The notes beneath the pieces are model-generated. The model was not told where the DNA came from. It searched no databases and saw nothing but the letters and a program-made list of their open reading frames with translations. 35,359 nucleotides of DNA from the NCBI RefSeq assembly GCF_003334305.1, contig NZ_QOWS01000034.1; one strand, 5' to 3'. Position numbers and translations under genes: made by a program. Each line of letters begins with the position of its first letter. The first letter of the stretch is position 1. Source of the stretch: Escherichia coli (lineage in GTDB: Bacteria; Pseudomonadota; Gammaproteobacteria; Enterobacterales; Enterobacteriaceae). Below are positions 125-21,464 of this stretch, one piece after another.

Positions 125-201
125 GGAGCGGTAGTTCAGTCGGTTAGAATACCTGCCTGTCACGCAGGGGGTCGCGGGTTCGAGTCCCGTCCGTTCCGCC
201 A
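125..201 (+). tRNA. aspU: tRNA-Asp (GUC anticodon)
   Basis: 77-nt sequence GGAGCGGTAGTTCAGTCGGTTAGAATACCTGCCTGTCACGCAGGGGGTCGCGGGTTCGAGTCCCGTCCGTTCCGCCA, with a GTC anticodon in the CTGTCAC loop. Lies just 3' of the 5S rRNA as in an rrn operon distal tRNA. Confidence 0.95.
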
Positions 202-8348: not shown

Positions 8349-8425
8349 GGAGCGGTAGTTCAGTCGGTTAGAATACCTGCCTGTCACGCAGGGGGTCGCG
8401 GGTTCGAGTCCCGTCCGTTCCGCCA
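8349..8425 (+). tRNA. aspV: tRNA-Asp (GUC anticodon)
   Basis: Sequence identical to the tRNA-Asp at 125..201. Stand-alone tRNA downstream of dnaQ, as for aspV in K-12. Confidence 0.95.
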
Positions 8426-9541: not shown

Positions 9542-9677
9542 TAAATTATATCTGCCGCCAGGAATTTCTGGCGGCAATAATACAAAATTCTTTGCATAAG
9601 AAATTTTTCTTGACAAAGACAGTGCAAGAAAGGACATGGAATCCGGAGTTAAAAACTGTTTGTTTTAGAATATTTAA

Positions 9678-10157
9678 TTATTTAACTGCTGAATCTTCCT
9701 TGCGAGAAATATATTCATTATTACATTTCATGCCATTTTTAATATAGATTGCTCCTGGGAAAATCCCCGTATTATTACCGCAGGGGTGATAATTAGCATT
9801 GACATATCCTGTGACAAAAGGAGCTATTAAAGGTGCTATTACGATAGCTATTAGTAAAAATATAAGAGTTAGCTGTATTGTTATGTCTGTGGCGAAATTG
9901 ACTACCTTCGTTTTTTTGATTAAGAATGATTTTATTATCGTAAGTAAAATTACATGAACATTTAAAAAGGAAAACGACATGAAACCAAAGCACAGAATCA
10001 ACATTCTCCAATCATAAAATATTTCCGTGGAGCATTTTATTATTGAATATAGAGGTTTAACTCCGGTAAAAAACAAAGAAGCATTGAATGCAGGGAAAAA
10101 TAATATGGCCATAAAAAACATCGAAAGAAACTCTTTTAATTTAACATGTAAACGCAT
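9678..10157 (-). CDS. ykfM: Small multi-pass inner-membrane protein (YkfM-like); candidate immunity protein
   Basis: 159-aa ORF with about three strongly hydrophobic segments. Starts 9 bp after the stop of the upstream glycine-zipper protein. Very AT-rich. Same size as K-12 ykfM. Confidence 0.6.
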   Translation of the reverse strand: MRLHVKLKEFLSMFFMAILFFPAFNASLFFTGVKPLYSIIKCSTEIFYDWRMLILCFGFMSFSFLNVHVILLTIIKSFLIKKTKVVNFATDITIQLTLIFLLIAIVIAPLIAPFVTGYVNANYHPCGNNTGIFPGAIYIKNGMKCNNEYISRKEDSAVK

Positions 10158-10166
10158 GGTTAATCC

Positions 10167-11096
10167 TCATATCACGGGTGGAGTGTTAAGAACATACATA
10201 AATGGAGTCATGTTTTCCCTTTTCCATTTATCAAGTTCCTGTTGCCGTTTTAGTCCATCTCTAATTGCATATTTTAATTTTTCTGATAAATGGCATTGAG
10301 CATCGATTTCATTTAAAACAACTGTACACACTATCCCTGTCAGTAAAATTGCTCCTCCGACAAGAATTACTGGAAAGCCAAAGCTAACACAGGCAAAAGA
10401 AGCCAGGCTTCCAATAGCGGTTGCAACACCACCGGCTATAACTGCTTTGGCCACATCCATTGAAAAATCGCCAAGAAAATTAACCAGATCTCGCTCTGAA
10501 CTCATAATAAATTCTATGGTTCTCCAGGCTACTGAAAACCAGATACAGAACTTAACTCCTTTTATTGATTCAGATAAAGCTCCTCGCCAGCCAATAGCGA
10601 GTTCCAGAACTTGAGGCGCTCGTGAAGAGAAAATATATTTACCGAGCTTTTCTAAAAGCCAGGGGCTGGATGTTGTGATTTTTATATATTTCTCTCCAAG
10701 TATTTCAAAGTAACTTGCTTTTGTATACTTTAAGGCATTAAGGTTAAATATAATTTTCCCATTGTCATCAAACTCAGTCATTAATTTACTCGCGTTAACT
10801 AACCAGGCGAGTGTATCTTTTATACCTGAAGGATGTGTAGTGATAAAATGAATGTAATCAAATGATGTTATTGGGCTGAGTATTTTTTTTGCAACATCAA
10901 GTGTCAAGAGAATAACATGATGAGTGTTCTGATGCCTTAACTCATCAATGAGTGGGACGTCGTTAAGATAAGGGTGCTGAGGTACTAGCTGGTTTATCGG
11001 CTGAGCCCCCCGAAGAATGTCACCCACATAATCAGCCCACTGTGCATTCTGTGTGTTGTTGTTATTCCTTAAACCAGCCATTTTATCTCTCCGCAA
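10167..11096 (-). CDS. Hypothetical protein with C-terminal glycine-zipper hydrophobic region; candidate Hcp-associated membrane-active T6SS effector
   Basis: 309-aa ORF (start may be the ATG at 11081, MAGLRNNN). Soluble N-terminal part followed by AVIAGGVATAIGSLASFACVSFGFPVILVGGAILLTGIVCTVV. Begins 28 bp after the hcp-like gene and is followed 9 bp later by the membrane protein. Confidence 0.5.
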   Translation of the reverse strand: MRRDKMAGLRNNNNTQNAQWADYVGDILRGAQPINQLVPQHPYLNDVPLIDELRHQNTHHVILLTLDVAKKILSPITSFDYIHFITTHPSGIKDTLAWLVNASKLMTEFDDNGKIIFNLNALKYTKASYFEILGEKYIKITTSSPWLLEKLGKYIFSSRAPQVLELAIGWRGALSESIKGVKFCIWFSVAWRTIEFIMSSERDLVNFLGDFSMDVAKAVIAGGVATAIGSLASFACVSFGFPVILVGGAILLTGIVCTVVLNEIDAQCHLSEKLKYAIRDGLKRQQELDKWKRENMTPFMYVLNTPPVI

Positions 11097-11124
11097 TAGT
11101 AATTTATTATGTTATTACAGTAAG

Positions 11125-11607
11125 TTACTGTACACGATCCTGCCATTTACTCATTGCATTCGTACCGGCTAACGTATGCTCCCAGGAAATATCTTCATAA
11201 ATAAAGGCAATTCTCTCCTGTGGTTCCAGTTCTTTTTCCAGGACAGCATGCGGTGTGACAAAATCAATACTTGATATTCGGGCTTTTGACAGATTTATTT
11301 TATAATAAGGCTGGTAAATACCCGCTTTACTGGTTCGGTAGAGTATAAATTCACATATTGCCATTTTTTCATTGTCACTAAGTGCTTTTGCCAGCAATGG
11401 TGAGGATTTATCAACCGGTTTGGTGATAATTAATTCATGATGATTGACATTTTGACTTCTTGAGATGGAATGCATTAACGCATAAACCATGATCTGATCT
11501 TTATGTTCTGGCTGCGCTTTGTTTCCGACAGAATCAAGCGTTGAGCAACCTGCTGAAATTAGCCCTTGTGTCTCTCCACTCAAAGATAAATAACTTATAT
11601 TTGCCAT
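11125..11607 (-). CDS. Hcp-family protein (second, orphan hcp outside the hcp-vgrG operon)
   Basis: 160-aa ORF. Shares several spaced motifs with the Hcp at 31693..32211: Y-S-GxTQG-I-AG, DSVGN, KPxDKSSPLL versus KPFIF...AVPLM, WEH near the C-terminus. Confidence 0.7.
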   Translation of the reverse strand: MANISYLSLSGETQGLISAGCSTLDSVGNKAQPEHKDQIMVYALMHSISRSQNVNHHELIITKPVDKSSPLLAKALSDNEKMAICEFILYRTSKAGIYQPYYKINLSKARISSIDFVTPHAVLEKELEPQERIAFIYEDISWEHTLAGTNAMSKWQDRVQ

Positions 11608-11630
11608 GATAATCTCCTTTAATTAAATAA

Positions 11631-12983
11631 TTATTTTTCGGCCGTGGTACCGGTTGCCGCCTCTGGCATGACGTTATTCTTCAGCAGCAGCCAGCGGCTT
11701 AACACGCCTTCGAGTCGCTCATTAATTTGTTTTTCCAGCGCATCTGTATTCTGCTTCTGCGCACGGGCATCATGGTACTGCGTCAACAGAGACTCAACGG
11801 GTGTTTCCTGCCCCAGTCCCCGCTCCGCCTGCCAGATGACATTTTTGATATAGGAAAGGGTTAGTCCCTCTTTCTCGCGCTGCATCACTAGATCTGCAAA
11901 AGCATGTAAGTCCTGGCGGGTCTGCAACCAGCCACGCAACTGCGGGCTACTCTGTGCGCGGGTTTTGAGTGCCTCATTCCATTGTGTCGAGGCCTGTTGC
12001 TGTTGCAGGCTTTCCGGCCAGCGACTGTCGGCAACACGCATCATCTGCATCCCGGTTTCCAGCGGCTGTACCGGGGAGGTATCAAGAAGTTGTTGCAGCC
12101 TGCGCTCATAGTTTTCGAGTTCAGGTGAGGCCATCCACACCGTTGCTGCGCCCTGAGCGGTGTCGTTAACCTGTAACAGTTGCTGCTGCACCGGATAGAC
12201 CTGCCACCACCACAATGCTGAGGCGACAGCCACTGAACAGGCGATCCCTGCGATAAACCCTCTTACCGTACTGCCTTGATTTATCACACTGGCCTGTGGG
12301 GGATTCTCTGTCAGACTGCGAACTTCCACTTTCATCTCAGGCAGGCCGGGCAGGGGAGGCACTACCGCTTCTGGTGTGGAAGATGCCTGTGTTTCCGGGG
12401 CATAAATCAGCGTTCTGACCGTGGTCTGTGCGGCGTTCTCAGTGTTACTCTTCAGCTGGGGTCCAAGCCGTTTACGCGTGTTCTGCATAAAATAGAGCAG
12501 ATTCTCCACGCGCGGAACGCGCTTCAGTTCCACCTGCTGGAGCTTATCGCAGATAAGCTGCAATGCCCGCTCTGTGCGGTAGATCAGTGGTAGGTCGGAT
12601 TCCGCAAAGGAGATTTGCTGACGCAGAATATTGCCGGTTCGGGAGTTAAACCAGTCCAGCATTTCAGTACGCGCCGGGCCGCCCTGCGGCCAGAACTTAT
12701 CCCAGTCGTGGCTTACCATTGCCGCCAGCAGTTCCGCACCTTCGCAGAATCCCGCCAGTCCCTGTGTCCGTGTCCGGGCAAGCGTATAGTAGGTGGCGGT
12801 GTGTAAATCCACACCGTTGGCTTTAAAAATCGCCAGCGCCAGCGACTCCACCAGTTTCCAGTTCAGCTCAGGCTGTGACGGGTGGCTGGCTTTGTTTATT
12901 TCCTCGCGGATGGCGCTGAATTCCGGCAGCCCGCGCGGGTCACTGCCGGTAACGATAGTTTGTGTCAGTACGTTACTATTCAT
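11631..12983 (-). CDS. T6SS accessory membrane protein with ImpA_N-like N-terminal domain (VasL-like)
   Basis: N-terminal region resembles the ImpA-N/TssA family. Central hydrophobic segment (FIAGIACSVAVASALWWW). Start trimmed to the ATG at 12981..12983, which has a GGAGG ribosome-binding site and sits 10 bp after the tssM stop; the track ORF over-extends into tssM. Confidence 0.55.
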   Translation of the reverse strand: MNSNVLTQTIVTGSDPRGLPEFSAIREEINKASHPSQPELNWKLVESLALAIFKANGVDLHTATYYTLARTRTQGLAGFCEGAELLAAMVSHDWDKFWPQGGPARTEMLDWFNSRTGNILRQQISFAESDLPLIYRTERALQLICDKLQQVELKRVPRVENLLYFMQNTRKRLGPQLKSNTENAAQTTVRTLIYAPETQASSTPEAVVPPLPGLPEMKVEVRSLTENPPQASVINQGSTVRGFIAGIACSVAVASALWWWQVYPVQQQLLQVNDTAQGAATVWMASPELENYERRLQQLLDTSPVQPLETGMQMMRVADSRWPESLQQQQASTQWNEALKTRAQSSPQLRGWLQTRQDLHAFADLVMQREKEGLTLSYIKNVIWQAERGLGQETPVESLLTQYHDARAQKQNTDALEKQINERLEGVLSRWLLLKNNVMPEAATGTTAEK

Positions 12984-12993
12984 CCCTGCCTCC

Positions 12994-15900
12994 TCAGTAC
13001 AGTGTGTCTGACAGACCAAACTGGCTGAACAACCCACCGCTGAACGGGTTATCTTCCGTGTCGGTATGCACACGGTAGGTCATCGCGCCACCGTCCACGC
13101 TAAAGCGCACGGTAAAGTTGCCATCCTGTACTCCGGTCAGTTGTCCGGCCCCGAACAGGCGGAACTGCGCCCACGGCCCGCTGAAGCTGATACTGCGCGG
13201 CGCGTTGCCGCTGGTGCCGATGAGCGTCAGCTTACTTTCGTTGCCTTCGCGCATGTTGTTAGGCCAGACCAGATGGGCGGTATAGTTACGGCCCTGGCTG
13301 TAATCGACTAACTGACCGTCAAGGTTCAGTACACTGCGGCGTTTATTGCCTGAAAGCGATACCGTTTCCACGGCAAAGGATGTTCCCAGACCGTTCTGTT
13401 TGCTGAAGAAGATGTCACGGATTTTCTGCGCAGTTTCCAGTTGCGCAATAATATCTTCGCGAATAATGACGTTGTTATCGCCATCCTCCAGACTCAGGTC
13501 ATTATCGATAAACAGCTTCAGGTTCTGCTGGTAGAAGGTATCCAGTATGCCATCCGGTTTAAAGAAGCGTTCGAAGGCATCCAGTGAGGCATCCTGTGCA
13601 GAACGCGGATTAAACGGATAGTTATTTGCCAGTTGCTCGTTAAACGGTTTCACCACGCTGTCGCGCCAGTCCACTTCCATATAATGAACAGCCTCCACCA
13701 TCACCACATGCCAGGCCTGGTCAGCCAGCCTGCCAACCCAGCGGTTGAGCGGAGCAGGCAGCGTTTTTGCCATCTGGCGGGTGGCGAATATCGGATCGCT
13801 GCTGTTCTGATCAAGCCGTAACTGCACGGCTTTCAGCGCCGATTTCCCTGGTACAGGCGCGTTCTGGATTGCCAGCAGGTAGCGGTGCAACTCGGTGAGT
13901 TGCTGATACACGGCCTGCATCGTGCTTTCTTTGTCTTTCTGTACTGCCAGGGTACTGTTTTCCGGGGCGAATTCATGCCCGAGGCGGGTGAGTAACTGGT
14001 AATCCGGCTCTGCCAGGGCTTCCTCCCGTTCTTTGGCAGAGAGTTTTTCAGAAAAGACGCCTGGCTGTGTGTTGTCACGCAGCACGGTCAGCGCCCGCTG
14101 CAAAGGCTGGTCGCCGCTGATAACCTGCTCCAGCGCCCCGGTCAGTTGTCCGATGGACTCAAAATTGCGGATATTCAGATTGTCCATCCCAGCCCGCCAG
14201 GTGGCGGTGTAGTCGCTGATATACTGCTCGGTCAACTGGTGCTGGATTTCCGCACGGTCGGCGTCACTGTATTTCACATTGCGGGTGAGGTTAAGTACCC
14301 AGGAATCCATCGCTGTCAGTTCAACCAGTTCATCGCGCTGTTTTACAAAATAGCTTTGCAGGCCGTAGCGGGTGATAAACTGTGGAACAACCAGTTTGTT
14401 GTCATCGGCAGATGTAAACACCTGGTCAAAGGTTGGCCCTACCTGGTCACGCAGATTGAGGTCGGCAGGAAGAACGCCCAGCGCCCGCGTTTTCAGGCTC
14501 TGGTAAACCCGCTGGTAGACAGGCAGTTTGCTCAGTTCTTTCTGTGCTGATACCACGGGCTTGTCATATGGCGTCCAGCGGCTGATGGCGTCACCGTCGC
14601 CCGCCTGACGCTCTGCATGCCAGTCAGTATGAGCCAGCGCGTAGTCAAGATGGGACATCAGTTGTGCCTGGATATCGCGCTGGCCGTGGAATTTTTCGCT
14701 CCAGCGTTTTGCCATATACTGCTTCACCACCTCATTGTTACGTCCGCTTTTGTCCTCCAGCATTCGCATTACGCGCAGCACCGCGAGTTTTTCTTCACTC
14801 TCCGGCGGCGCGGCGTTCATCGCTTTGACCAGCCCGTTAAACAGCGAGGGCAGGTAACGTTGCTCCAGCAGTTGCAGATAGGTCTGTTCCACATAAGGCC
14901 CGATACGTCGTCCCTGGTACAGTCCCATATCGGCCAGACGGCTGCGGTCGCCCCAGTCGCCATAGGCCAGTGTGGCATCGCGTACCGGGTTCAGGAGCGG
15001 CAGTTGCAGGTTGCCAAAGTCATCTTCCCCCTGCGGAGGCGGCACGTCCATAAAGGCTTTGGCCTGCTTAAGCACGGTGATGCCGGACTGATAGTTACCG
15101 TTGTAATAGTGATGCCAGCCGGTGATGAGCAGCAGTGCTGCCACGCCGCCTGTGGCAGAGAAAACCGTCAGGCGGCGACGGGAACGTATCAGCCAGGCGC
15201 GGCTCTCTGTTGCCAGATTAGGCTCTGCGAGTAATGCCTGCGGGAACAGGCTGCGGGTGAAATAAGGCGCGGTGTCCACCAGGGGCCAGGACGCCAGTGG
15301 GTTATTGCCCAGCCGGTACTGGCGGGCGGCAGACTGGGTGAATATATCATCCATCTGCCCACGCTGAAGCGAAGAGGTGAGATAGACACCACGCAGCATA
15401 ACGTTCATATTTTCGCCATCAAGCAGACCCTCAAGCAGTGACACCAGCGGTTCACGGCTTCCCTGCATCTGGCGGGAAAAACTGAATAAAGACGCGCGGG
15501 TGTGAGTCTGAGCGACCATCAGATCCGGCAACGCCAGATTCATTCGATCCACCCATGTCTGCCAGAAAGCATTCAACTCTGTTCGCCAGTCATCATTTTC
15601 ATGGGCACGGCGGGTGAACGTGACGCCCAGAATCGCATCGCGATCCTGTCTGTTGAGTGACTGGAACAGGGCGGCAAAACCCTGTAATAAATCAAGCCGG
15701 GTCAGTACCACGTAAACCGGTAACTGGCAGTGAAGATGCTGGCGTATATCCTGTAAGCGGCTGCGCAGCGTCTGTAACAGATGCTCGCGGCGGCGTTTGT
15801 CTGCGGTCAGCAGATCGGGTAAATCGAGTGTCAGAATAATCCCGTTCAGCGGCTGGCGCGCGCGCTTTTCTTTCAGCCAGCCGAGGGCATGTTCCCACAG

Positions 15901-16518
15901 ACGGCGATGCAGGATATCCGCATCAGCGGGAGCGCAGAGTGTGCCGTCGATATCAAAGATCACCGCCTGTTTACCGACATGGGGCGTGAGGTACAGGCGT
16001 TGTTCTGCGCCGCGTGCGCCCTCCGGGGCATAAATAATGTCGGACGGAAACCCCTCGCGCAGCAGTGTCGTTTTGCCACTGCCCGCCGGGCCGATGACCA
16101 TATACCACGGCAACTGCCACAGGAAACGGCGGTTGTCGAGATGGCGTTGCAGGCGCAGCAGCCAGCGGTCGAGGTAACGCTGCTGGGCGTTCAGTTCCAC
16201 ACTGAGCGGATCAATGGCTTCCTCGCGCTGTTGTTTTTGCTGTTTTTCAAGCTGTTGCAGGCGCTTCATTACCCGGACGGTAAGCCACACCAGGGCAATA
16301 ATCCCCCACGCCGCCGTTGCCAGCCAGCGGTTCGCCAGTGGTTTGAGCCACTGCTCTTCATACAGCGTCCACGTCGGGCCTTTCCACCAGATCCAAACCA
16401 GCAGGAAAATCCACGCCAGTATCAGCAGCCAGAATGCAGAGACTTTAAATCGGGGCATCGCCGGGCGCAGGGCTGATTTGAGTCCGCTGAATAGTCGGGG
16501 TGTTGGTAATCTGAACAC
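12994..16518 (-). CDS. tssM: T6SS membrane complex protein TssM (IcmF family)
   Basis: 1174-aa ORF with N-terminal transmembrane segments, a Walker A P-loop (GPAGSGKTTLL) and a long periplasmic C-terminal region. Position and size typical of IcmF/TssM. Confidence 0.9.
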   Translation of the reverse strand: MFRLPTPRLFSGLKSALRPAMPRFKVSAFWLLILAWIFLLVWIWWKGPTWTLYEEQWLKPLANRWLATAAWGIIALVWLTVRVMKRLQQLEKQQKQQREEAIDPLSVELNAQQRYLDRWLLRLQRHLDNRRFLWQLPWYMVIGPAGSGKTTLLREGFPSDIIYAPEGARGAEQRLYLTPHVGKQAVIFDIDGTLCAPADADILHRRLWEHALGWLKEKRARQPLNGIILTLDLPDLLTADKRRREHLLQTLRSRLQDIRQHLHCQLPVYVVLTRLDLLQGFAALFQSLNRQDRDAILGVTFTRRAHENDDWRTELNAFWQTWVDRMNLALPDLMVAQTHTRASLFSFSRQMQGSREPLVSLLEGLLDGENMNVMLRGVYLTSSLQRGQMDDIFTQSAARQYRLGNNPLASWPLVDTAPYFTRSLFPQALLAEPNLATESRAWLIRSRRRLTVFSATGGVAALLLITGWHHYYNGNYQSGITVLKQAKAFMDVPPPQGEDDFGNLQLPLLNPVRDATLAYGDWGDRSRLADMGLYQGRRIGPYVEQTYLQLLEQRYLPSLFNGLVKAMNAAPPESEEKLAVLRVMRMLEDKSGRNNEVVKQYMAKRWSEKFHGQRDIQAQLMSHLDYALAHTDWHAERQAGDGDAISRWTPYDKPVVSAQKELSKLPVYQRVYQSLKTRALGVLPADLNLRDQVGPTFDQVFTSADDNKLVVPQFITRYGLQSYFVKQRDELVELTAMDSWVLNLTRNVKYSDADRAEIQHQLTEQYISDYTATWRAGMDNLNIRNFESIGQLTGALEQVISGDQPLQRALTVLRDNTQPGVFSEKLSAKEREEALAEPDYQLLTRLGHEFAPENSTLAVQKDKESTMQAVYQQLTELHRYLLAIQNAPVPGKSALKAVQLRLDQNSSDPIFATRQMAKTLPAPLNRWVGRLADQAWHVVMVEAVHYMEVDWRDSVVKPFNEQLANNYPFNPRSAQDASLDAFERFFKPDGILDTFYQQNLKLFIDNDLSLEDGDNNVIIREDIIAQLETAQKIRDIFFSKQNGLGTSFAVETVSLSGNKRRSVLNLDGQLVDYSQGRNYTAHLVWPNNMREGNESKLTLIGTSGNAPRSISFSGPWAQFRLFGAGQLTGVQDGNFTVRFSVDGGAMTYRVHTDTEDNPFSGGLFSQFGLSDTLY

Positions 16519-16536
16519 AAAAACTCCTGTTCTCTT

Positions 16537-17952
16537 TTATTGTTCTGCCGTGAATTTTTGTTCTAGCTGCTCAAGCAGGGACGGCTCCCAGTCTGCCACC
16601 ATCATCTGCAATCCCATCCTGAACAACATCCTGTACTGCTGTTGCGCAAGCTGTACCAGCCCCGCCTCTTCCATAAGCTGCGCGCCAAAATACTGCCGGT
16701 GGAACTGGTCGCGGGGTTCACCGGCGGGTAACGTATCCAGATACCGTAAGGCGGCTTCCAGCCCCTGCTCATCAAAACACAACCGCGCAGCCTGAATATC
16801 TTCATTACTCACCTGTATGACTGGCGCGGACTGGTTACCTGGCTGATTTGCAAGCCATTGCTTCGTTTTTTCAGAAACAAACGGTGTGTGGTCGTTAAAC
16901 AGAAGATCAGCGAGCGCGGGCAGACGGCCAAGAAAGGAAACGACTTCATCGCGGATGGCATCGGCTACAGCGGTATAACCAAGACGGTGCGCCGTCTGTG
17001 CAGAAATGTAGTGACCGTCCAGCCAGTAGGGTGCCAGCAGTACGCTTTTTTCCACCTGCTGCCACAGCTCCATATCCGCGCTGGCAAGCCGGGACTGGTA
17101 ATCCGCCACCATATCGGCAGAGACCGCAGCCAGTGGAGTACGTCTATCGCTTTCCGCCTGGGGCGTACTGGTGATGGTTAGCCACAGGGCATGGCGACGC
17201 AGGCGATAGCCCTGCGGCGATTCCGGTTGGCGCTCGCATAAAATGGCCGCCACTTTTAACAGTGTGTCGCGCCAGGTTTTGTCGTCGTGACTGTCGATGG
17301 CGATCTGTGGAGTCGGAGTACTGGTATGCGTCACGCCGCTTTCAGACGTGGCGATCGTCTGTGGTGAACTACTGGAGGCCGCCGGAGTGGGGGCTGGAGC
17401 CGGTGCCGCACGATTAAACGCACGCTGGTAAAGGGCAAAAAGATCATCAGTAGCCTGTGCTAGTTCCGGGGCATTATGTGACTGCCAGCATTGCGCCAGT
17501 TTCGCCAGTTCACCTAGCAGCGCATCGCGCTGCGCTGTGGCGGCGTTCTGTGAAAAAGCGTCAATACCTGTTTCGAAGCGTTTAATAACCTGGCTGGCAA
17601 AGCGTTTTTTATGTGCCATATTCTGCGGCGCGGCTACCGCCCAGTAATGCTCCACATACAGCGCCAGCAGGCGCAAGGCCAGGAGCGGATCACCGGCATG
17701 TTGCAGGGTTCTCAGCAGATGCGCCAGCAGGCGAAAATCCTTACTCTCCGAAGCCAGAAGGACCAGTCCCCGGTGCTGGAGTTCAGGGATATCCAGCTGG
17801 CTGTGCGCCAGCGATCCCAGTTTGACAATCCCACCGTCGATATACTCCCAGTCCGGGTTGTCGTCCTTCAGCGCCGATGCCAGTTTCTCTTCCGGCAGGT
17901 TTTCCAGCAGGTGCGATACCCAGACATTCGGATCGCGTAAGTCCATTGCCAT
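16537..17952 (-). CDS. tssA: T6SS protein TssA (ImpA family)
   Basis: About 470-aa product. Size, soluble character and position next to tssM fit TssA. Start placed at the ATG at 17950..17952, just after the stop of the upstream gene; the ATG at 17946 is an alternative. Confidence 0.7.
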   Translation of the reverse strand: MAMDLRDPNVWVSHLLENLPEEKLASALKDDNPDWEYIDGGIVKLGSLAHSQLDIPELQHRGLVLLASESKDFRLLAHLLRTLQHAGDPLLALRLLALYVEHYWAVAAPQNMAHKKRFASQVIKRFETGIDAFSQNAATAQRDALLGELAKLAQCWQSHNAPELAQATDDLFALYQRAFNRAAPAPAPTPAASSSSPQTIATSESGVTHTSTPTPQIAIDSHDDKTWRDTLLKVAAILCERQPESPQGYRLRRHALWLTITSTPQAESDRRTPLAAVSADMVADYQSRLASADMELWQQVEKSVLLAPYWLDGHYISAQTAHRLGYTAVADAIRDEVVSFLGRLPALADLLFNDHTPFVSEKTKQWLANQPGNQSAPVIQVSNEDIQAARLCFDEQGLEAALRYLDTLPAGEPRDQFHRQYFGAQLMEEAGLVQLAQQQYRMLFRMGLQMMVADWEPSLLEQLEQKFTAEQ

Positions 17953-17956
17953 ATTT

Positions 17957-18700
17957 TTATTCTCCCGCCCAGTGGCAGGCATCGCGCAGGGGAGCAATCG
18001 CCCTTGCCAGCCCGTCAATGTTAAAGGTCAGCTTTCCGGCGGCGTTGTCTGCGCCGGTATCCACCATCAGCGTTTTTGCGCCGAACAGTTGCTTAATTTC
18101 ATCAATCCCGGACAGCCCCCGGCTGGATTCCAGCAGAGTGCCGTTCTCGCGCACAAACCAGTGGCTGCGCAATGCCCGGCTGTCGGCATTCAGGGTGACG
18201 GCGATATCATGAACATCCAGAGGGTGCATCAGCGCCACCTGCATCCGGGTGATATTGTCCACGCAACTGAACATCAGCACCGGGCGCGGCGGAACATGGC
18301 CGATAGCCGGGGTGGTTATCACCACCGTCGGGCGTTCCCCCGGCACCTGCGTCACCAGCAGCTCTGTGGTGTTGCCCTGGCGGCGTTTTTCCTGCTCCGT
18401 AGCGCGGGTCCAGGCTTCGCCCACAAAGCTGGCTTTGACCAGTGCCCCGTTAAATCCTGACGGGGACAGTGGTGCCAGCAGGCGGTCGTAACAGTCAAGC
18501 CGCTCCAGCGCCGCCGTCTCCTGCCGACAGGACTGCATGGCATGTAACGTGGCAGTCGCATCCGGCGGGGTCGCAGTGGCGACGGCTACCTCCACACCGG
18601 CCAGTGACGATGTTTCTGCGGGCGCGGCACTGGCGGGTAAGCCCGCCACCAGGCCTGCGATAAACCATCCTGTCTGCCGGAAAACGCGCAACCTGCTCAT
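17957..18700 (-). CDS. T6SS-associated exported protein (VasI/TagO-like)
   Basis: 247-aa ORF with an N-terminal signal-peptide-like segment (GWFIAGLVAGLPASAAPA). Start overlaps the clpV stop by 4 bp. Family assignment is from memory and tentative. Confidence 0.5.
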   Translation of the reverse strand: MSRLRVFRQTGWFIAGLVAGLPASAAPAETSSLAGVEVAVATATPPDATATLHAMQSCRQETAALERLDCYDRLLAPLSPSGFNGALVKASFVGEAWTRATEQEKRRQGNTTELLVTQVPGERPTVVITTPAIGHVPPRPVLMFSCVDNITRMQVALMHPLDVHDIAVTLNADSRALRSHWFVRENGTLLESSRGLSGIDEIKQLFGAKTLMVDTGADNAAGKLTFNIDGLARAIAPLRDACHWAGE

Positions 18701-21456
18701 AAATCCGTTTCATCCTCTGTGACAGACTCGTCGTCCAGAGCATCTTCCACGTCTGCCGTGAACGCGCCGTCTGCCGCCGACAGGCGGATGCGGGCAATCG
18801 CCGTGTTGGCCGCCATTTTCTGCAACAGCAGCAGCGAGAGCGGGGGCAGCATGTCGCCGTCAATGACGGACTCCAGCATCCTTGCGCCGTTTTCCGCGCG
18901 GGTGACGCGGCTCATGATCTCGTCCGTCACTTCCGACTCAATAATCACGTCCGCATCAAAGCGGCTGCGCAGCACGTTATCCAGGCGGGCCAGTTTCCCG
19001 TCGATAATGGTGGTGAGCGTCTCTTTCGACAGAGGCAGGTACGGCACCACTTCCATACGCGCCAGCAGGGCTGGTTTAAAGAAGTCCGCCAGCACCGGAT
19101 ACAGCACTTCCTGCATGGTTTCCGGGTCATCCGCGTGTTCAACAATCACCTGGTAACCAAGGTTGGAGGTGAGGAAGAAAACGATATTCTTACAGTCAAT
19201 CAGTCGGCCTTCGCCGTCTGCCATCTCGCCCTTGTCGAACGCCTGGTAGAACAGGTTGAGGACATCCGGGTGCGCTTTTTCCACTTCATCAAGCAGCACC
19301 ACCGAGTACGGTTTCTGGCGAATCGCTTCGGTCAGTACGCCGCCTTCGCCATAGCCGACATAGCCCGGAGGGGAGCCAATCAGCCGCGAGACGGTGTGTT
19401 TTTCCTGGAACTCGGACATATTGATGGTGGTCAGGTACTGGCGACCGCCGTAGAGCAGTTCTGCCAGTTGCAGGACGGTTTCGGTTTTACCCACGCCGCT
19501 GGGACCGGCCAGCAGAAACGCGCCGAGTGGGCGTCCCGGACGACGCAGGTCGGCGCGTGCAGTCAGCAGGTGTTTATGCAGGCTGGCAATCGCCAGGTCC
19601 TGGCCTTTGATGGTGTCACCCAGCCATACCGGCAGGTCGGTGATGACCGACATCTCATTCTGTGACAGGCGGTTAAGCGGTACGCCGGTCCATTCGGCAA
19701 TCACCGCCGCAATCTGTTTTTTATCGACGTGCGGGGAGACCAGCAACCGGTCGTTATGCAGGGCGTCCAGTTCGGCAGTGAGCTGTGCCAGTCGCTGCAC
19801 CGGGGAAACTGTTTCTGCGGTCTCTTCCGGCTGTTCGCTGCCAGCTTCATCAGCCAGTTTAGCACCGGTATTATCCTGTTCTGACTCTGGCTGCGTATCC
19901 TCCACGGTATCTGCGTCCGGCAACGGCGCCGCATCGTCCTCTGCCACGCCCAGTAACTGCTGGCGCAGCGCAATAATCTCCCGGACCAGCGTCTGCTGCT
20001 GGTGCCAGGCCGCTTCCAGTTCATCCAGCGCCGTCAGCGTTTCATCATACTGCACCAGCACCTCGGTCATCCGTGATGTGTCGGTACGCAGTCCGATGCG
20101 AAGCTCGCGCTCAAGCTGGCGAATTTCCGCCTCCTGCTGGTGGCTCAGAGTGGTCAGCGCCGAGATTTGCTTCGGCGGCGACGACAGGTTGATGGCCACA
20201 CGGGCGCAGGCGGTATCCAGCACATCAATCGCTTTGTCCGGTAACTGACGCCCGGAGAGATAACGCTCGCTTAATGTCGCAGCGGCCTGCAAGGCGTCAT
20301 CATCAATCAGCACGCCGTGAGACTGTTCATAGACCGCCGACAGACCGCGCAGAATAATGGTGGCTTCGGCAGCGTTGGGTTCGCTGACCTTCACCAACTG
20401 GAAGCGGCGCGACAGGGCGGCATCTTTTTCGAAGTATTTTTTGTACTCGCTCCAGGTGGTGGCGGCGATGGTTTTCAGCTCGCCGCGCGCCAGCGCCGGT
20501 TTGAGCAGGTTGGAGATATCCAGCCCGCCCTGCTGGTTGCCCGCGCCAATCAGGGTATGTGCTTCGTCGATAAACAGAATGACCGGCACCGGGGAGGAAA
20601 TGACCTCCGCCATCAGCCCTTTGAAACGTTTTTCGAATTCACCCTTCACCGACGCTCCGGCCTGCAATGCGCCCAAGTCAAGGGTCATGATATCGGTGTT
20701 TTTCAGCTTGTCCGGCACATGGCCTGCCACGATGCGCAGCGCCAGCCCTTCGATTAAGGCGCTTTTACCCACGCCTGCTTCGCCCACCACCACCGGGTTG
20801 TTCTTGCGGCGGCGGCAGAGAATGTCGATCATCAGGTCGATTTCGTGGTCGCGGCACAGTACCGGGTCAAGCCTGCCGTTACGGGCGTCTGCGGTCATGT
20901 TTTTGGCGTAGCGGGCAAGCAGGGTGTCAGCAGCGTCCGTCAGTGTGCCTGCGCCTTTACCGTCTGCATCCGGCACGACTGATTCCGCCGACTCCTGTGT
21001 CCATTGCACAAAGTCCTGTTGCAGACGGTCACGGTTAATGCCGGTCAACAGCCGGGCGGCAGCAGGCGGTATATAACGCAGCGGCGAATGCAGCAGGGCC
21101 AGCAGCAACACGCCGCCACGCAATTCGCTGTGCTGCATCTCAGCCGACGCCAGCAGCCAGCCCTCTTTCAGCCACTCAACCAGCATCGGGGAAAATGCCG
21201 GGTAGCTGTCCGCAGAACGGGCAGTTGTGTAGTTCTCCACCGTCAGCGCCTGGCGCAACTCTTCCATGCCAATATCGCCCTGGCGGGTAATAACCCGCAG
21301 GTCACTGCGTGGCATGGCGAGCATCTGAATAAGCACATGGCTGACGGTAATTTCCGCTGCCTGCTGGCTCATACATTCAGAGGCGGCCATCTCCAGCGCC
21401 TGGCGGGAGAACAGGTTAAGCCGTTTTACCAGCGTGGGAAGATCAATCTGGATCAT
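18697..21456 (-). CDS. clpV: T6SS AAA+ ATPase ClpV (TssH)
   Basis: Two AAA+ modules with Walker A motifs (GEAGVGKSA and GPSGVGKTE) and a ClpB-like middle region. Start trimmed to the ATG at 21454..21456 (MIQIDLPTLV), which has an AAGGA ribosome-binding site; the track ORF is over-extended. Confidence 0.9.
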   Translation of the reverse strand: MIQIDLPTLVKRLNLFSRQALEMAASECMSQQAAEITVSHVLIQMLAMPRSDLRVITRQGDIGMEELRQALTVENYTTARSADSYPAFSPMLVEWLKEGWLLASAEMQHSELRGGVLLLALLHSPLRYIPPAAARLLTGINRDRLQQDFVQWTQESAESVVPDADGKGAGTLTDAADTLLARYAKNMTADARNGRLDPVLCRDHEIDLMIDILCRRRKNNPVVVGEAGVGKSALIEGLALRIVAGHVPDKLKNTDIMTLDLGALQAGASVKGEFEKRFKGLMAEVISSPVPVILFIDEAHTLIGAGNQQGGLDISNLLKPALARGELKTIAATTWSEYKKYFEKDAALSRRFQLVKVSEPNAAEATIILRGLSAVYEQSHGVLIDDDALQAAATLSERYLSGRQLPDKAIDVLDTACARVAINLSSPPKQISALTTLSHQQEAEIRQLERELRIGLRTDTSRMTEVLVQYDETLTALDELEAAWHQQQTLVREIIALRQQLLGVAEDDAAPLPDADTVEDTQPESEQDNTGAKLADEAGSEQPEETAETVSPVQRLAQLTAELDALHNDRLLVSPHVDKKQIAAVIAEWTGVPLNRLSQNEMSVITDLPVWLGDTIKGQDLAIASLHKHLLTARADLRRPGRPLGAFLLAGPSGVGKTETVLQLAELLYGGRQYLTTINMSEFQEKHTVSRLIGSPPGYVGYGEGGVLTEAIRQKPYSVVLLDEVEKAHPDVLNLFYQAFDKGEMADGEGRLIDCKNIVFFLTSNLGYQVIVEHADDPETMQEVLYPVLADFFKPALLARMEVVPYLPLSKETLTTIIDGKLARLDNVLRSRFDADVIIESEVTDEIMSRVTRAENGARMLESVIDGDMLPPLSLLLLQKMAANTAIARIRLSAADGAFTADVEDALDDESVTEDETDL

Positions 21457-21464
21457 AAACGTCC

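What the first reader, a model, noticed from the sequence alone, without database searches (positions are those of the whole stretch)
11631..17952. Two ImpA_N-type proteins flank tssM: a canonical TssA and a membrane-anchored VasL-like paralogue
The cluster encodes a soluble TssA-like protein (16537..17952) and a second protein (11631..12983) with a similar N-terminal domain but a central hydrophobic segment and a Gln/Ala-rich C-terminal half. Membrane-anchored ImpA_N proteins are poorly characterised. Their role here, for example in anchoring or positioning the sheath/baseplate, is not evident from sequence.
Basis: inference. Interest (0 to 1): 0.4.

Follow-up and report, generated by a model that had tools for sequence, protein, structure and literature searches.

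The report
Ordinary TssA plus TagA sheath-stopper pair

Summary
The window is an E. coli chromosome carrying the aspV-linked type VI secretion island, which has the same gene order as Vibrio cholerae VCA0107-0121. 16537..17952(-) encodes a class-A TssA (ImpA_N + VasJ). It scores 496 bits on NCBIfam TIGR03362 against a cut-off of 230, and matches the solved V. cholerae TssA chain at E 4e-63. 11631..12983(-) encodes ImpA_N (3e-19), one hydrophobic helix (aa 242-262) and a VasL domain (4.8e-23). It aligns end to end with the experimentally characterised EAEC TagA (27% identity, E 3e-47).

This architecture is the published TagA/TsmA class. TagA sits at the inner membrane, captures the TssA-capped distal end of the sheath, stops polymerisation and holds the sheath extended.

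The gene is near full length in 2708 of 5426 complete E. coli genomes, where RefSeq names it "VasL domain-containing protein".

Two caveats apply. The two N-terminal domains are related only at profile level (pairwise BLASTP E 0.98). The C-terminal half is Gln/Leu/Glu-rich, not Ala-rich.

Whether the VasL domain is cytoplasmic or periplasmic remains open. Novelty: already known. Interest: low.

The parts
11631..12983 (-). tagA (VasL-domain / TsmA-class gene), 450 aa. The ATG at 12983 is preceded by a GAGGAGG ribosome-binding site and lies 10 nt after the tssM stop codon.
   Evidence: ORF. RefSeq 'VasL domain-containing protein' WP_001087754.1. Pfam ImpA_N + VasL. 27% identity end to end with EAEC TagA, E 3e-47. 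Upstream sequence.
12645..12950 (-). ImpA_N domain of TagA (aa 12-113). The confidently folded helical N-terminal domain extends to about aa 175.
   Evidence: Pfam PF06812 E 3e-19. TIGR03362 positions 14-210, E 1.1e-23. PDB sequence hit to the N-terminus of the 532-aa chain 6rju; EAEC 042 TssA is also 532 aa, so identity of the two is inferred (E 1.9e-06). AlphaFold2 pLDDT >90 over aa 11-170, and the best Foldseek PDB hit is 6hs5, a TssA N-terminal domain.
12198..12260 (-). Single hydrophobic membrane-anchor segment of TagA (aa ~242-262), preceded by a disordered Pro/Thr/Ser-rich linker (aa ~178-236).
   Evidence: Kyte-Doolittle maximum 1.69. A peak at the same alignment position occurs in 47 of 48 full-length homologues, with more Lys/Arg on the N-terminal flank. 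AlphaFold2 helix 239-274.
11682..12110 (-). VasL domain of TagA (aa 292-434), all-helical.
   Evidence: Pfam PF12486 E 4.8e-23, model positions 1-146 of 147. AlphaFold2 helices 276-444. No significant PDB fold match for this part.
12994..16428 (-). tssM (the longest ORF extends to a GTG at 16518).
   Evidence: NCBIfam TIGR03348, 945 bits against a cut-off of 388. RefSeq call.
16537..17952 (-). tssA, 471 aa, class A / TsaC type (ImpA_N aa 28-112 = 17617..17871; VasJ C-terminal domain aa 223-466 = 16555..17286).
   Evidence: TIGR03362, 496 bits against a cut-off of 230, matched end to end. Pfam ImpA_N 4.3e-05 + T6SS_VasJ 1.6e-72. PDB sequence hits 6g7b 2e-84 and 6riu ('Type VI secretion system protein TssA') 4e-63.
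17957..18700 (-). vasI, the accessory gene immediately upstream of tssA.
   Evidence: TIGR03360, 263 bits against a cut-off of 124.
11125..11607 (-). hcp copy immediately downstream of tagA, the last T6SS gene of the operon.
   Evidence: TIGR03344, 203 bits. RefSeq.

Best explanation
The region encodes the TssA-TssM-TagA module of the aspV-linked, V. cholerae-like type VI secretion system of E. coli. TssA (ImpA_N + VasJ, class A/TsaC) is the soluble cap. By homology it primes baseplate and tail assembly, and rides the distal end of the growing Hcp tube and TssBC sheath. The 11631..12983 product is TagA (class B/TsmA). Its cytoplasmic ImpA_N domain is tethered through a ~60-residue flexible linker to one hydrophobic helix in the inner membrane, followed by a helical VasL domain. 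[quoted passage not shown] Loss of TagA is expected to reduce efficiency rather than abolish secretion. Shown here: domain architectures, homology to the characterised proteins, synteny and conservation. Inferred from the homologues: the mechanism, the TagA-TssA contact and the accessory (non-essential) status.
For: Architecture is ImpA_N + hydrophobic segment + VasL, and ImpA_N + VasJ for TssA. The VasL-like protein aligns end to end with the intact 455-aa TagA ORF of EAEC 042 in the Sci-1 region (27% identity, E 3e-47), with the hydrophobic segments aligned. TssA matches solved TssA chains at E 2e-84 (6g7b) and 4e-63 (6riu). The gene order tssB-tssC-tssE-F-G-tagH-tssJ-K-L-tssH-vasI-tssA-tssM-vasL follows the V. 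cholerae vas cluster. Published numbering places TssA at VCA0119 and TagA at VCA0121; the full VCA0107-0121 order is from my own knowledge. The operon is tight, with 4-23 nt gaps around tagA and tssA. The architecture and the position of the hydrophobic segment are conserved in 47 of 48 diverse full-length homologues of 23-76% identity. Sampled members come from Pantoea, Morganella, Providencia, Pragia and Moellerella. Across 1.84 billion representatives there are 341 hits at E<=1e-10. [quoted passage not shown] The same aspV cluster is reported functional in EHEC EDL933 (PMC5363993).
Against: No experiment on this particular orthologue was found. It is only 27% identical to EAEC TagA, and the characterised TagA proteins are only 19.3% identical to each other, so details may differ. 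TagA phenotypes already differ between species: killing drops to about 12% in EAEC but is essentially unchanged in V. cholerae. The hydrophobic segment of this orthologue is only marginally hydrophobic (Kyte-Doolittle 1.69) and its topology is unresolved. The cluster is H-NS-silenced in vitro in EHEC, so activity in this strain is unknown.
Confidence: 0.85

Rival explanations
1. The protein is a true single-pass inner-membrane protein (N-terminus in, C-terminus out). Its VasL domain then works in the periplasm, for example by contacting the TssJLM membrane complex or the cell wall, so the 'stopper' would be a trans-membrane device rather than a cytosolic protein stuck to the membrane.
For: There is one hydrophobic segment of ~21 residues at a conserved position, with Kyte-Doolittle 1.4-2.6 in homologues. 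Lys/Arg are enriched on the N-terminal flank (about 2.9 against 1.3 per 15 residues, my count), which by the positive-inside rule predicts N-in/C-out. AlphaFold2 gives one continuous helix, aa 239-274. TssM takes part in sheath termination together with TagA.
Against: From memory of Santin et al. 2018 (Nat Microbiol; not readable here), EAEC TagA was described as a cytosolic protein tightly associated with the membrane. C-terminal mNeonGreen fusions of V. cholerae TagA fluoresce and behave like the untagged protein. No topology predictor or experiment was available here.
Confidence: 0.1
2. The second ImpA_N protein is a redundant or alternative TssA-type initiator (TsaB-like baseplate factor) rather than a terminator.
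For: It shares ImpA_N and about 200 N-terminal positions with the TssA model. V. cholerae TagA is occasionally seen briefly at initiation sites and binds TssK.
Against: It lacks a VasJ or other ring-forming C-terminal domain. It scores 84 bits on TIGR03362, far below the cut-off of 230. It carries the VasL domain and membrane segment that define class B. Overproduced TagA inhibits assembly rather than promoting it.
Confidence: 0.03
3. It is an ImpA_N-fused membrane-targeting effector, like the ImpA-Tme fusions noted by Fridman et al.
For: ImpA_N can be fused to toxin domains (PMC7046647). The protein has a hydrophobic segment and sits next to an hcp gene.
Against: The C-terminal domain is VasL, not a Tme or other toxin domain. 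No adjacent immunity gene belongs to it. Its position next to tssM is fixed in both E. coli versions of the cluster examined. It aligns end to end with a structural TagA.
Confidence: 0.02

Closest known systems
TagA of the EAEC Sci-1 T6SS (EC042_4550; Santin et al. 2018)
   Same: Same length (455 vs 450 aa) and same order of ImpA_N, linker, single hydrophobic segment and VasL domain. Alignable end to end at E 3e-47. Partnered with a VasJ-type TssA and with TssM.
   Different: Only 27% identical. In EAEC the gene lies about 8.8 kb downstream of tssA, beyond the core Sci-1 genes, whereas here it directly follows tssM. The clusters have different gene orders. EAEC 042 carries both types: its aspV-cluster copy is 75% identical to the window's protein.
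TagA/VasL of Vibrio cholerae (VCA0121; class B / TsmA, Schneider et al. 2019; Stietz et al. 2020)
   Same: Same gene position (vasI-tssA-tssM-vasL) and the same Pfam VasL family, matched over the full model. The partner TssA matches the solved chain 6riu at E 4e-63. By gene order this is the closest functional model.
   Different: The E. coli cluster lacks vasH and has an extra hcp after the gene.
TssA class A / TsaC (A. hydrophila, V. cholerae and EAEC TssA)
   Same: The window's TssA has ImpA_N + VasJ, scores above the NCBIfam equivalog cut-off, and matches PDB 6g7b/6g7c and 6riu.
   Different: It is more distant from EAEC Sci-1 TssA: 23% identity over the C-terminal part only, E 1e-11.

Membership tests
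TagA / TsmA (class B ImpA_N proteins) | N-terminal ImpA_N domain (PF06812) | tested here: met
   E 3e-19, aa 12-113. The predicted fold matches the TssA N-terminal domain structure 6hs5 best.
TagA / TsmA (class B ImpA_N proteins) | Hydrophobic membrane-association segment after the ImpA_N region | tested here: met
   aa 242-262, Kyte-Doolittle 1.69. Conserved in position in 47 of 48 homologues. This is sequence-level evidence only.
TagA / TsmA (class B ImpA_N proteins) | C-terminal VasL domain (PF12486) | tested here: met
   E 4.8e-23, model positions 1-146 of 147.
TagA / TsmA (class B ImpA_N proteins) | Sequence homology to an experimentally characterised TagA | tested here: met
   27% identity over the whole length, E 3e-47, against EAEC 042 TagA.
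TagA / TsmA (class B ImpA_N proteins) | Encoded with a T6SS that has a VasJ-type (long) TssA | tested here: met
   tssA-tssM-tagA are contiguous within a complete T6SS cluster.
TagA / TsmA (class B ImpA_N proteins) | Membrane localisation, binding to TssA, and stopping and holding of the extended sheath | not testable with these tools
   Known only for the EAEC and V. cholerae proteins.
TssA class A / TsaC | Score above the curated NCBIfam TssA equivalog cut-off | tested here: met
   TIGR03362, 496.3 bits against 230.1, model positions 1-475 of 476.
TssA class A / TsaC | ImpA_N plus C-terminal VasJ domain (PF16989) | tested here: met
   4.3e-05 and 1.6e-72.
TssA class A / TsaC | Dodecameric C-terminal ring and localisation at the distal sheath end | not testable with these tools
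   Inferred from the solved relatives 6g7c and 6riu and from PMC6745524.
TssA (applied to the 11631..12983 product) | Score above the NCBIfam TssA equivalog cut-off | tested here: not met
   84.1 bits against 230.1 for TIGR03362, covering only model positions 14-210; 39.6 against 160.85 for TIGR03363. It shares the N-terminal domain but is not a TssA.

The most novel reading that the evidence does not exclude
The conserved single hydrophobic helix, with its positive-inside bias, is a genuine transmembrane span. The VasL domain would then sit in the periplasm, and sheath termination by TagA would involve a periplasmic contact (the TssM/TssJ periplasmic parts or peptidoglycan) rather than a purely cytoplasmic clamp. 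The published models of the class would then need revising.
Probability: 0.1. Interest if true: 0.4.

Novelty: already known. Interest (0 to 1): 0.08.

Why it matters
It matters little beyond correct annotation. The gene should be read as tagA (tsmA), the accessory stop-and-hold factor of the T6SS tail, not as an uncharacterised ImpA_N protein. The aspV-linked orthologue, present in about half of complete E. coli genomes, has apparently not been tested directly. It is only 27% identical to the EAEC Sci-1 TagA, so its quantitative contribution to firing and the topology of its VasL domain remain modest open questions.

Tried and rejected
- Direct BLASTP of the two window proteins found no significant similarity (E 0.98). 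'Paralogue' cannot be shown pairwise.
- hhalign of a 48-sequence TagA profile against the single TssA sequence aligned the expected regions but was not significant (E 0.29). I ran no further search on a TssA profile, because both proteins already match the same N-terminal part of TIGR03362.
- Foldseek against the PDB found no significant relative of the VasL domain. It returned only the TssA N-terminal domain (6hs5, E 1.2e-03, probability 1.00) and generic helical-repeat hits.
- The primary TagA paper (Santin et al. 2018) is not held in the library. Statements about cytosolic topology rest on memory and on secondary citations.
- The V. cholerae TagA sequence could not be fetched for a direct identity figure. 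The full-length Pfam VasL match and the gene order stand in for it.
- I could not settle which of the E. coli names T6SS-1, T6SS-2 or T6SS-3 applies to the aspV cluster, so I left it unnamed.
- PADLOC, Pfam and NCBIfam searches on the 304-aa protein downstream of hcp found nothing.

Full report
**Where the window comes from.** The 7.1-kb stretch around the finding is 100% identical to the chromosome of E. coli strain A7. It matches 3528 of 5426 complete E. coli genomes, 2752 of them over at least 80% of its length. The RefSeq annotation of that genome and ARAGORN place the region next to the aspV tRNA-Asp gene (window 8349..8425).

On the minus strand the annotated gene order is tssB, a small ORF, tssC, tssE, tssF, tssG, tagH, tssJ, tssK, tssL/dotU, tssH, vasI, tssA, tssM, a 'VasL domain-containing protein', then hcp. 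On the plus strand follow hcp, vgrG and an rhs gene. This is the order of the V. cholerae vas cluster without vasH. Published numbering gives TssA = VCA0119 and TagA = VCA0121; the rest of that order is from my own knowledge. The same aspV-linked island has been described, and reported functional, in EHEC EDL933 (PMC5363993).

**Checking the observation.** Both ORFs are present at the stated coordinates, and the chosen start codons agree with RefSeq. tagA starts at an ATG 10 nt after the tssM stop and is preceded by GAGGAGG. tssA starts 4 nt after the end of vasI.
- The 11631..12983 product has ImpA_N (aa 12-113, E 3e-19) and VasL (aa 292-434, E 4.8e-23, full model).
- Its only hydrophobic stretch is aa ~242-262, with a Kyte-Doolittle maximum of 1.69.
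- The 16537..17952 product has ImpA_N (E 4.3e-05) and T6SS_VasJ (E 1.6e-72).
- That product passes the NCBIfam TssA equivalog, 496 bits against a cut-off of 230, and has no hydrophobic window of 1.6 or more.

Two details need correcting. First, the N-terminal domains are not detectably similar pairwise. BLASTP gives E 0.98, and a TagA family profile against the TssA sequence gives E 0.29. Their relationship is visible only through shared profiles. Both hit ImpA_N, and residues 11-214 of the VasL-like protein match positions 14-210 of the same TssA model that the true TssA matches end to end (E 1.1e-23). The VasL-like N-terminus also hits the N-terminus of the 532-aa chain 6rju at E 1.9e-06; EAEC 042 TssA is also 532 aa, so I take them to be the same protein. 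Second, the C-terminal half is Gln-rich (11.7%) but not unusually Ala-rich (8.8%).

**What it is.** The intact 455-aa ORF in the Sci-1 region of EAEC 042 is the TagA characterised by Santin et al. It aligns with the window's protein over the full length (27% identity, E 3e-47), with the hydrophobic segments in register.

A search of 1.84 billion cluster representatives found 847 relatives at E<=0.001 and 341 at E<=1e-10. I aligned 46 full-length representatives (23-76% identical) with the query and EAEC TagA. Of these 48 sequences, 47 have a hydrophobic peak at the same alignment position. The N-terminal domain carries invariant residues (G13, P16, G57, L60, G78, W98, P99, R105). Named members of sampled clusters come from Pantoea, Morganella, Providencia, Pragia, Moellerella and Utexia. 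Close relatives (73-100% identity) occur in E. albertii, Salmonella, Citrobacter and Enterobacter, all with PF06812 + PF12486.

An AlphaFold2 model (mean pLDDT 83) shows four parts:
- a confident helical N-terminal domain, aa 11-175;
- a disordered linker, aa 178-236;
- one long helix, aa 239-274, containing the hydrophobic segment;
- a helical VasL domain.

Its best PDB fold match is the TssA N-terminal domain of Burkholderia (6hs5, E 1.2e-03, probability 1.00). Nothing significant matches the VasL part.

The window's TssA matches solved TssA chains at E 2e-84 (6g7b), 8e-64 (6g7c) and 4e-63 (6riu). It belongs to the class A / TsaC group.

**How it most likely works.** The literature divides ImpA_N proteins into three classes (PMC6745524; PMC7545191):
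- class B (TagA/TsmA, hydrophobic region and usually VasL), a membrane anchor that terminates polymerisation;
- class C (TsaB), a baseplate factor.

TagA interacts with TssA, localises to the cell periphery at the distal end of fully extended sheaths, and holds them. Its deletion gives over-long, bent or detaching sheaths and lower efficiency. Its overproduction blocks assembly by retaining TssA at the membrane. TssM also takes part in termination.

By homology and gene order, the window's tssA-tssM-tagA module should work the same way. The architecture, homology, synteny and conservation are shown here. The interactions and phenotype are inferred.

**What remains open.** One question is the topology of the VasL domain. 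Across the family, Lys/Arg are enriched on the N-terminal flank of the hydrophobic helix (about 2.9 against 1.3 per 15 residues, counted). For a true transmembrane span this would put VasL in the periplasm. My recollection is that the EAEC work describes TagA as cytosolic and tightly membrane-associated, but the paper could not be read here. I give the periplasmic reading about 10%.

**Novelty.** The family, its architecture and its role are published. RefSeq already annotates this gene, and it is present at 80% or more of its length in 2708 of 5426 complete E. coli genomes, 2463 of them at 99% identity or higher. EAEC 042 itself carries both TagA types: the Sci-1 copy, and an aspV-cluster copy 75% identical to this one. 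The finding is correct but already known.

**Noticed in passing.** The most interesting side observation concerns the 304-aa protein downstream of hcp. It has no family match and two C-terminal hydrophobic helices, and it is followed by the three-helix membrane protein YkfM. K-12 homology to the window stops inside this gene, so the K-12 'yafU' pseudogene is its 3' remnant. Other items are listed in the notes field.

Noticed in passing
window 9678..11096 (-): 304/309-aa ORF 10167..11081/11096 and ykfM 9678..10157: Directly downstream of the orphan hcp lies a 304-aa protein with no Pfam, NCBIfam or PADLOC match and two C-terminal hydrophobic helices (aa 214-232 and 238-256). It is followed by YkfM (159 aa, three hydrophobic helices), in a low-GC stretch (0.37-0.38). 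This could be an Hcp-linked membrane-targeting effector with its immunity protein. K-12 MG1655 homology to the window (95.9%) ends at 10523, inside this gene. The K-12 pseudogene yafU (b0218) is therefore its 3' remnant, and K-12 keeps ykfM as a leftover of the lost T6SS island. No paper in the library links ykfM and T6SS.
   Followed up: partly
L002 34071..35438 (EAEC 042, NC_017626.1 4884070..4885437): The experimentally studied EAEC tagA is an intact 455-aa ORF. The current RefSeq annotation nevertheless splits it into three partial pseudogene features (an ImpA_N fragment, a 'POTRA' fragment and a VasL fragment). This looks like an annotation artefact.
   Followed up: partly
protein database hits P0001, P0003, P0008 (TssF + VasL + ImpA_N, 576-629 aa), P0105 and P0107 (Hcp + VasL + ImpA_N, 618 aa), P0032 (VasL only, 362 aa, 83 contigs): Some E. 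coli gene calls fuse this TagA to TssF or Hcp domains, or start it downstream of ImpA_N. These are probably rearranged, frameshifted or mis-called genes rather than real fusions.
   Followed up: no
window 30237..30461 (-): A 74-aa hypothetical ORF is annotated between tssB and tssC (WP_000123970.1 in strain A7). It is absent from the EAEC 042 version of the cluster.
   Followed up: no
window 30997..31692: A ~700-bp AT-rich (GC about 0.39) divergent intergenic region lies between tssB (-) and hcp-vgrG-rhs (+). It is a likely regulatory region. The EHEC version of this cluster is reported to be silenced by H-NS.
   Followed up: no
window 16428..16518 (-): The tssM start is ambiguous. The longest ORF starts at a GTG at 16518 (1174 aa). 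RefSeq starts 30 codons later at 16428 (1144 aa), and the NCBIfam model alignment begins at residue 32 of the long form.
   Followed up: no
L004 (EAEC 042, aspV region) compared with window 9600..35359: E. coli carries at least two diverged versions of the aspV T6SS cluster; 549 records match the 7.1-kb query at only 60-80% identity. The EAEC 042 version has a TagA 75% identical to the window's, lacks the 304-aa gene and ykfM after hcp, and has a different cargo region after vgrG.
   Followed up: partly
window 125..201 and 8349..8425: There are two identical-anticodon tRNA-Asp(GTC) genes. One is at the end of an rrn operon at the window start. The other is aspV, at the border of the T6SS island.
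   Followed up: yes
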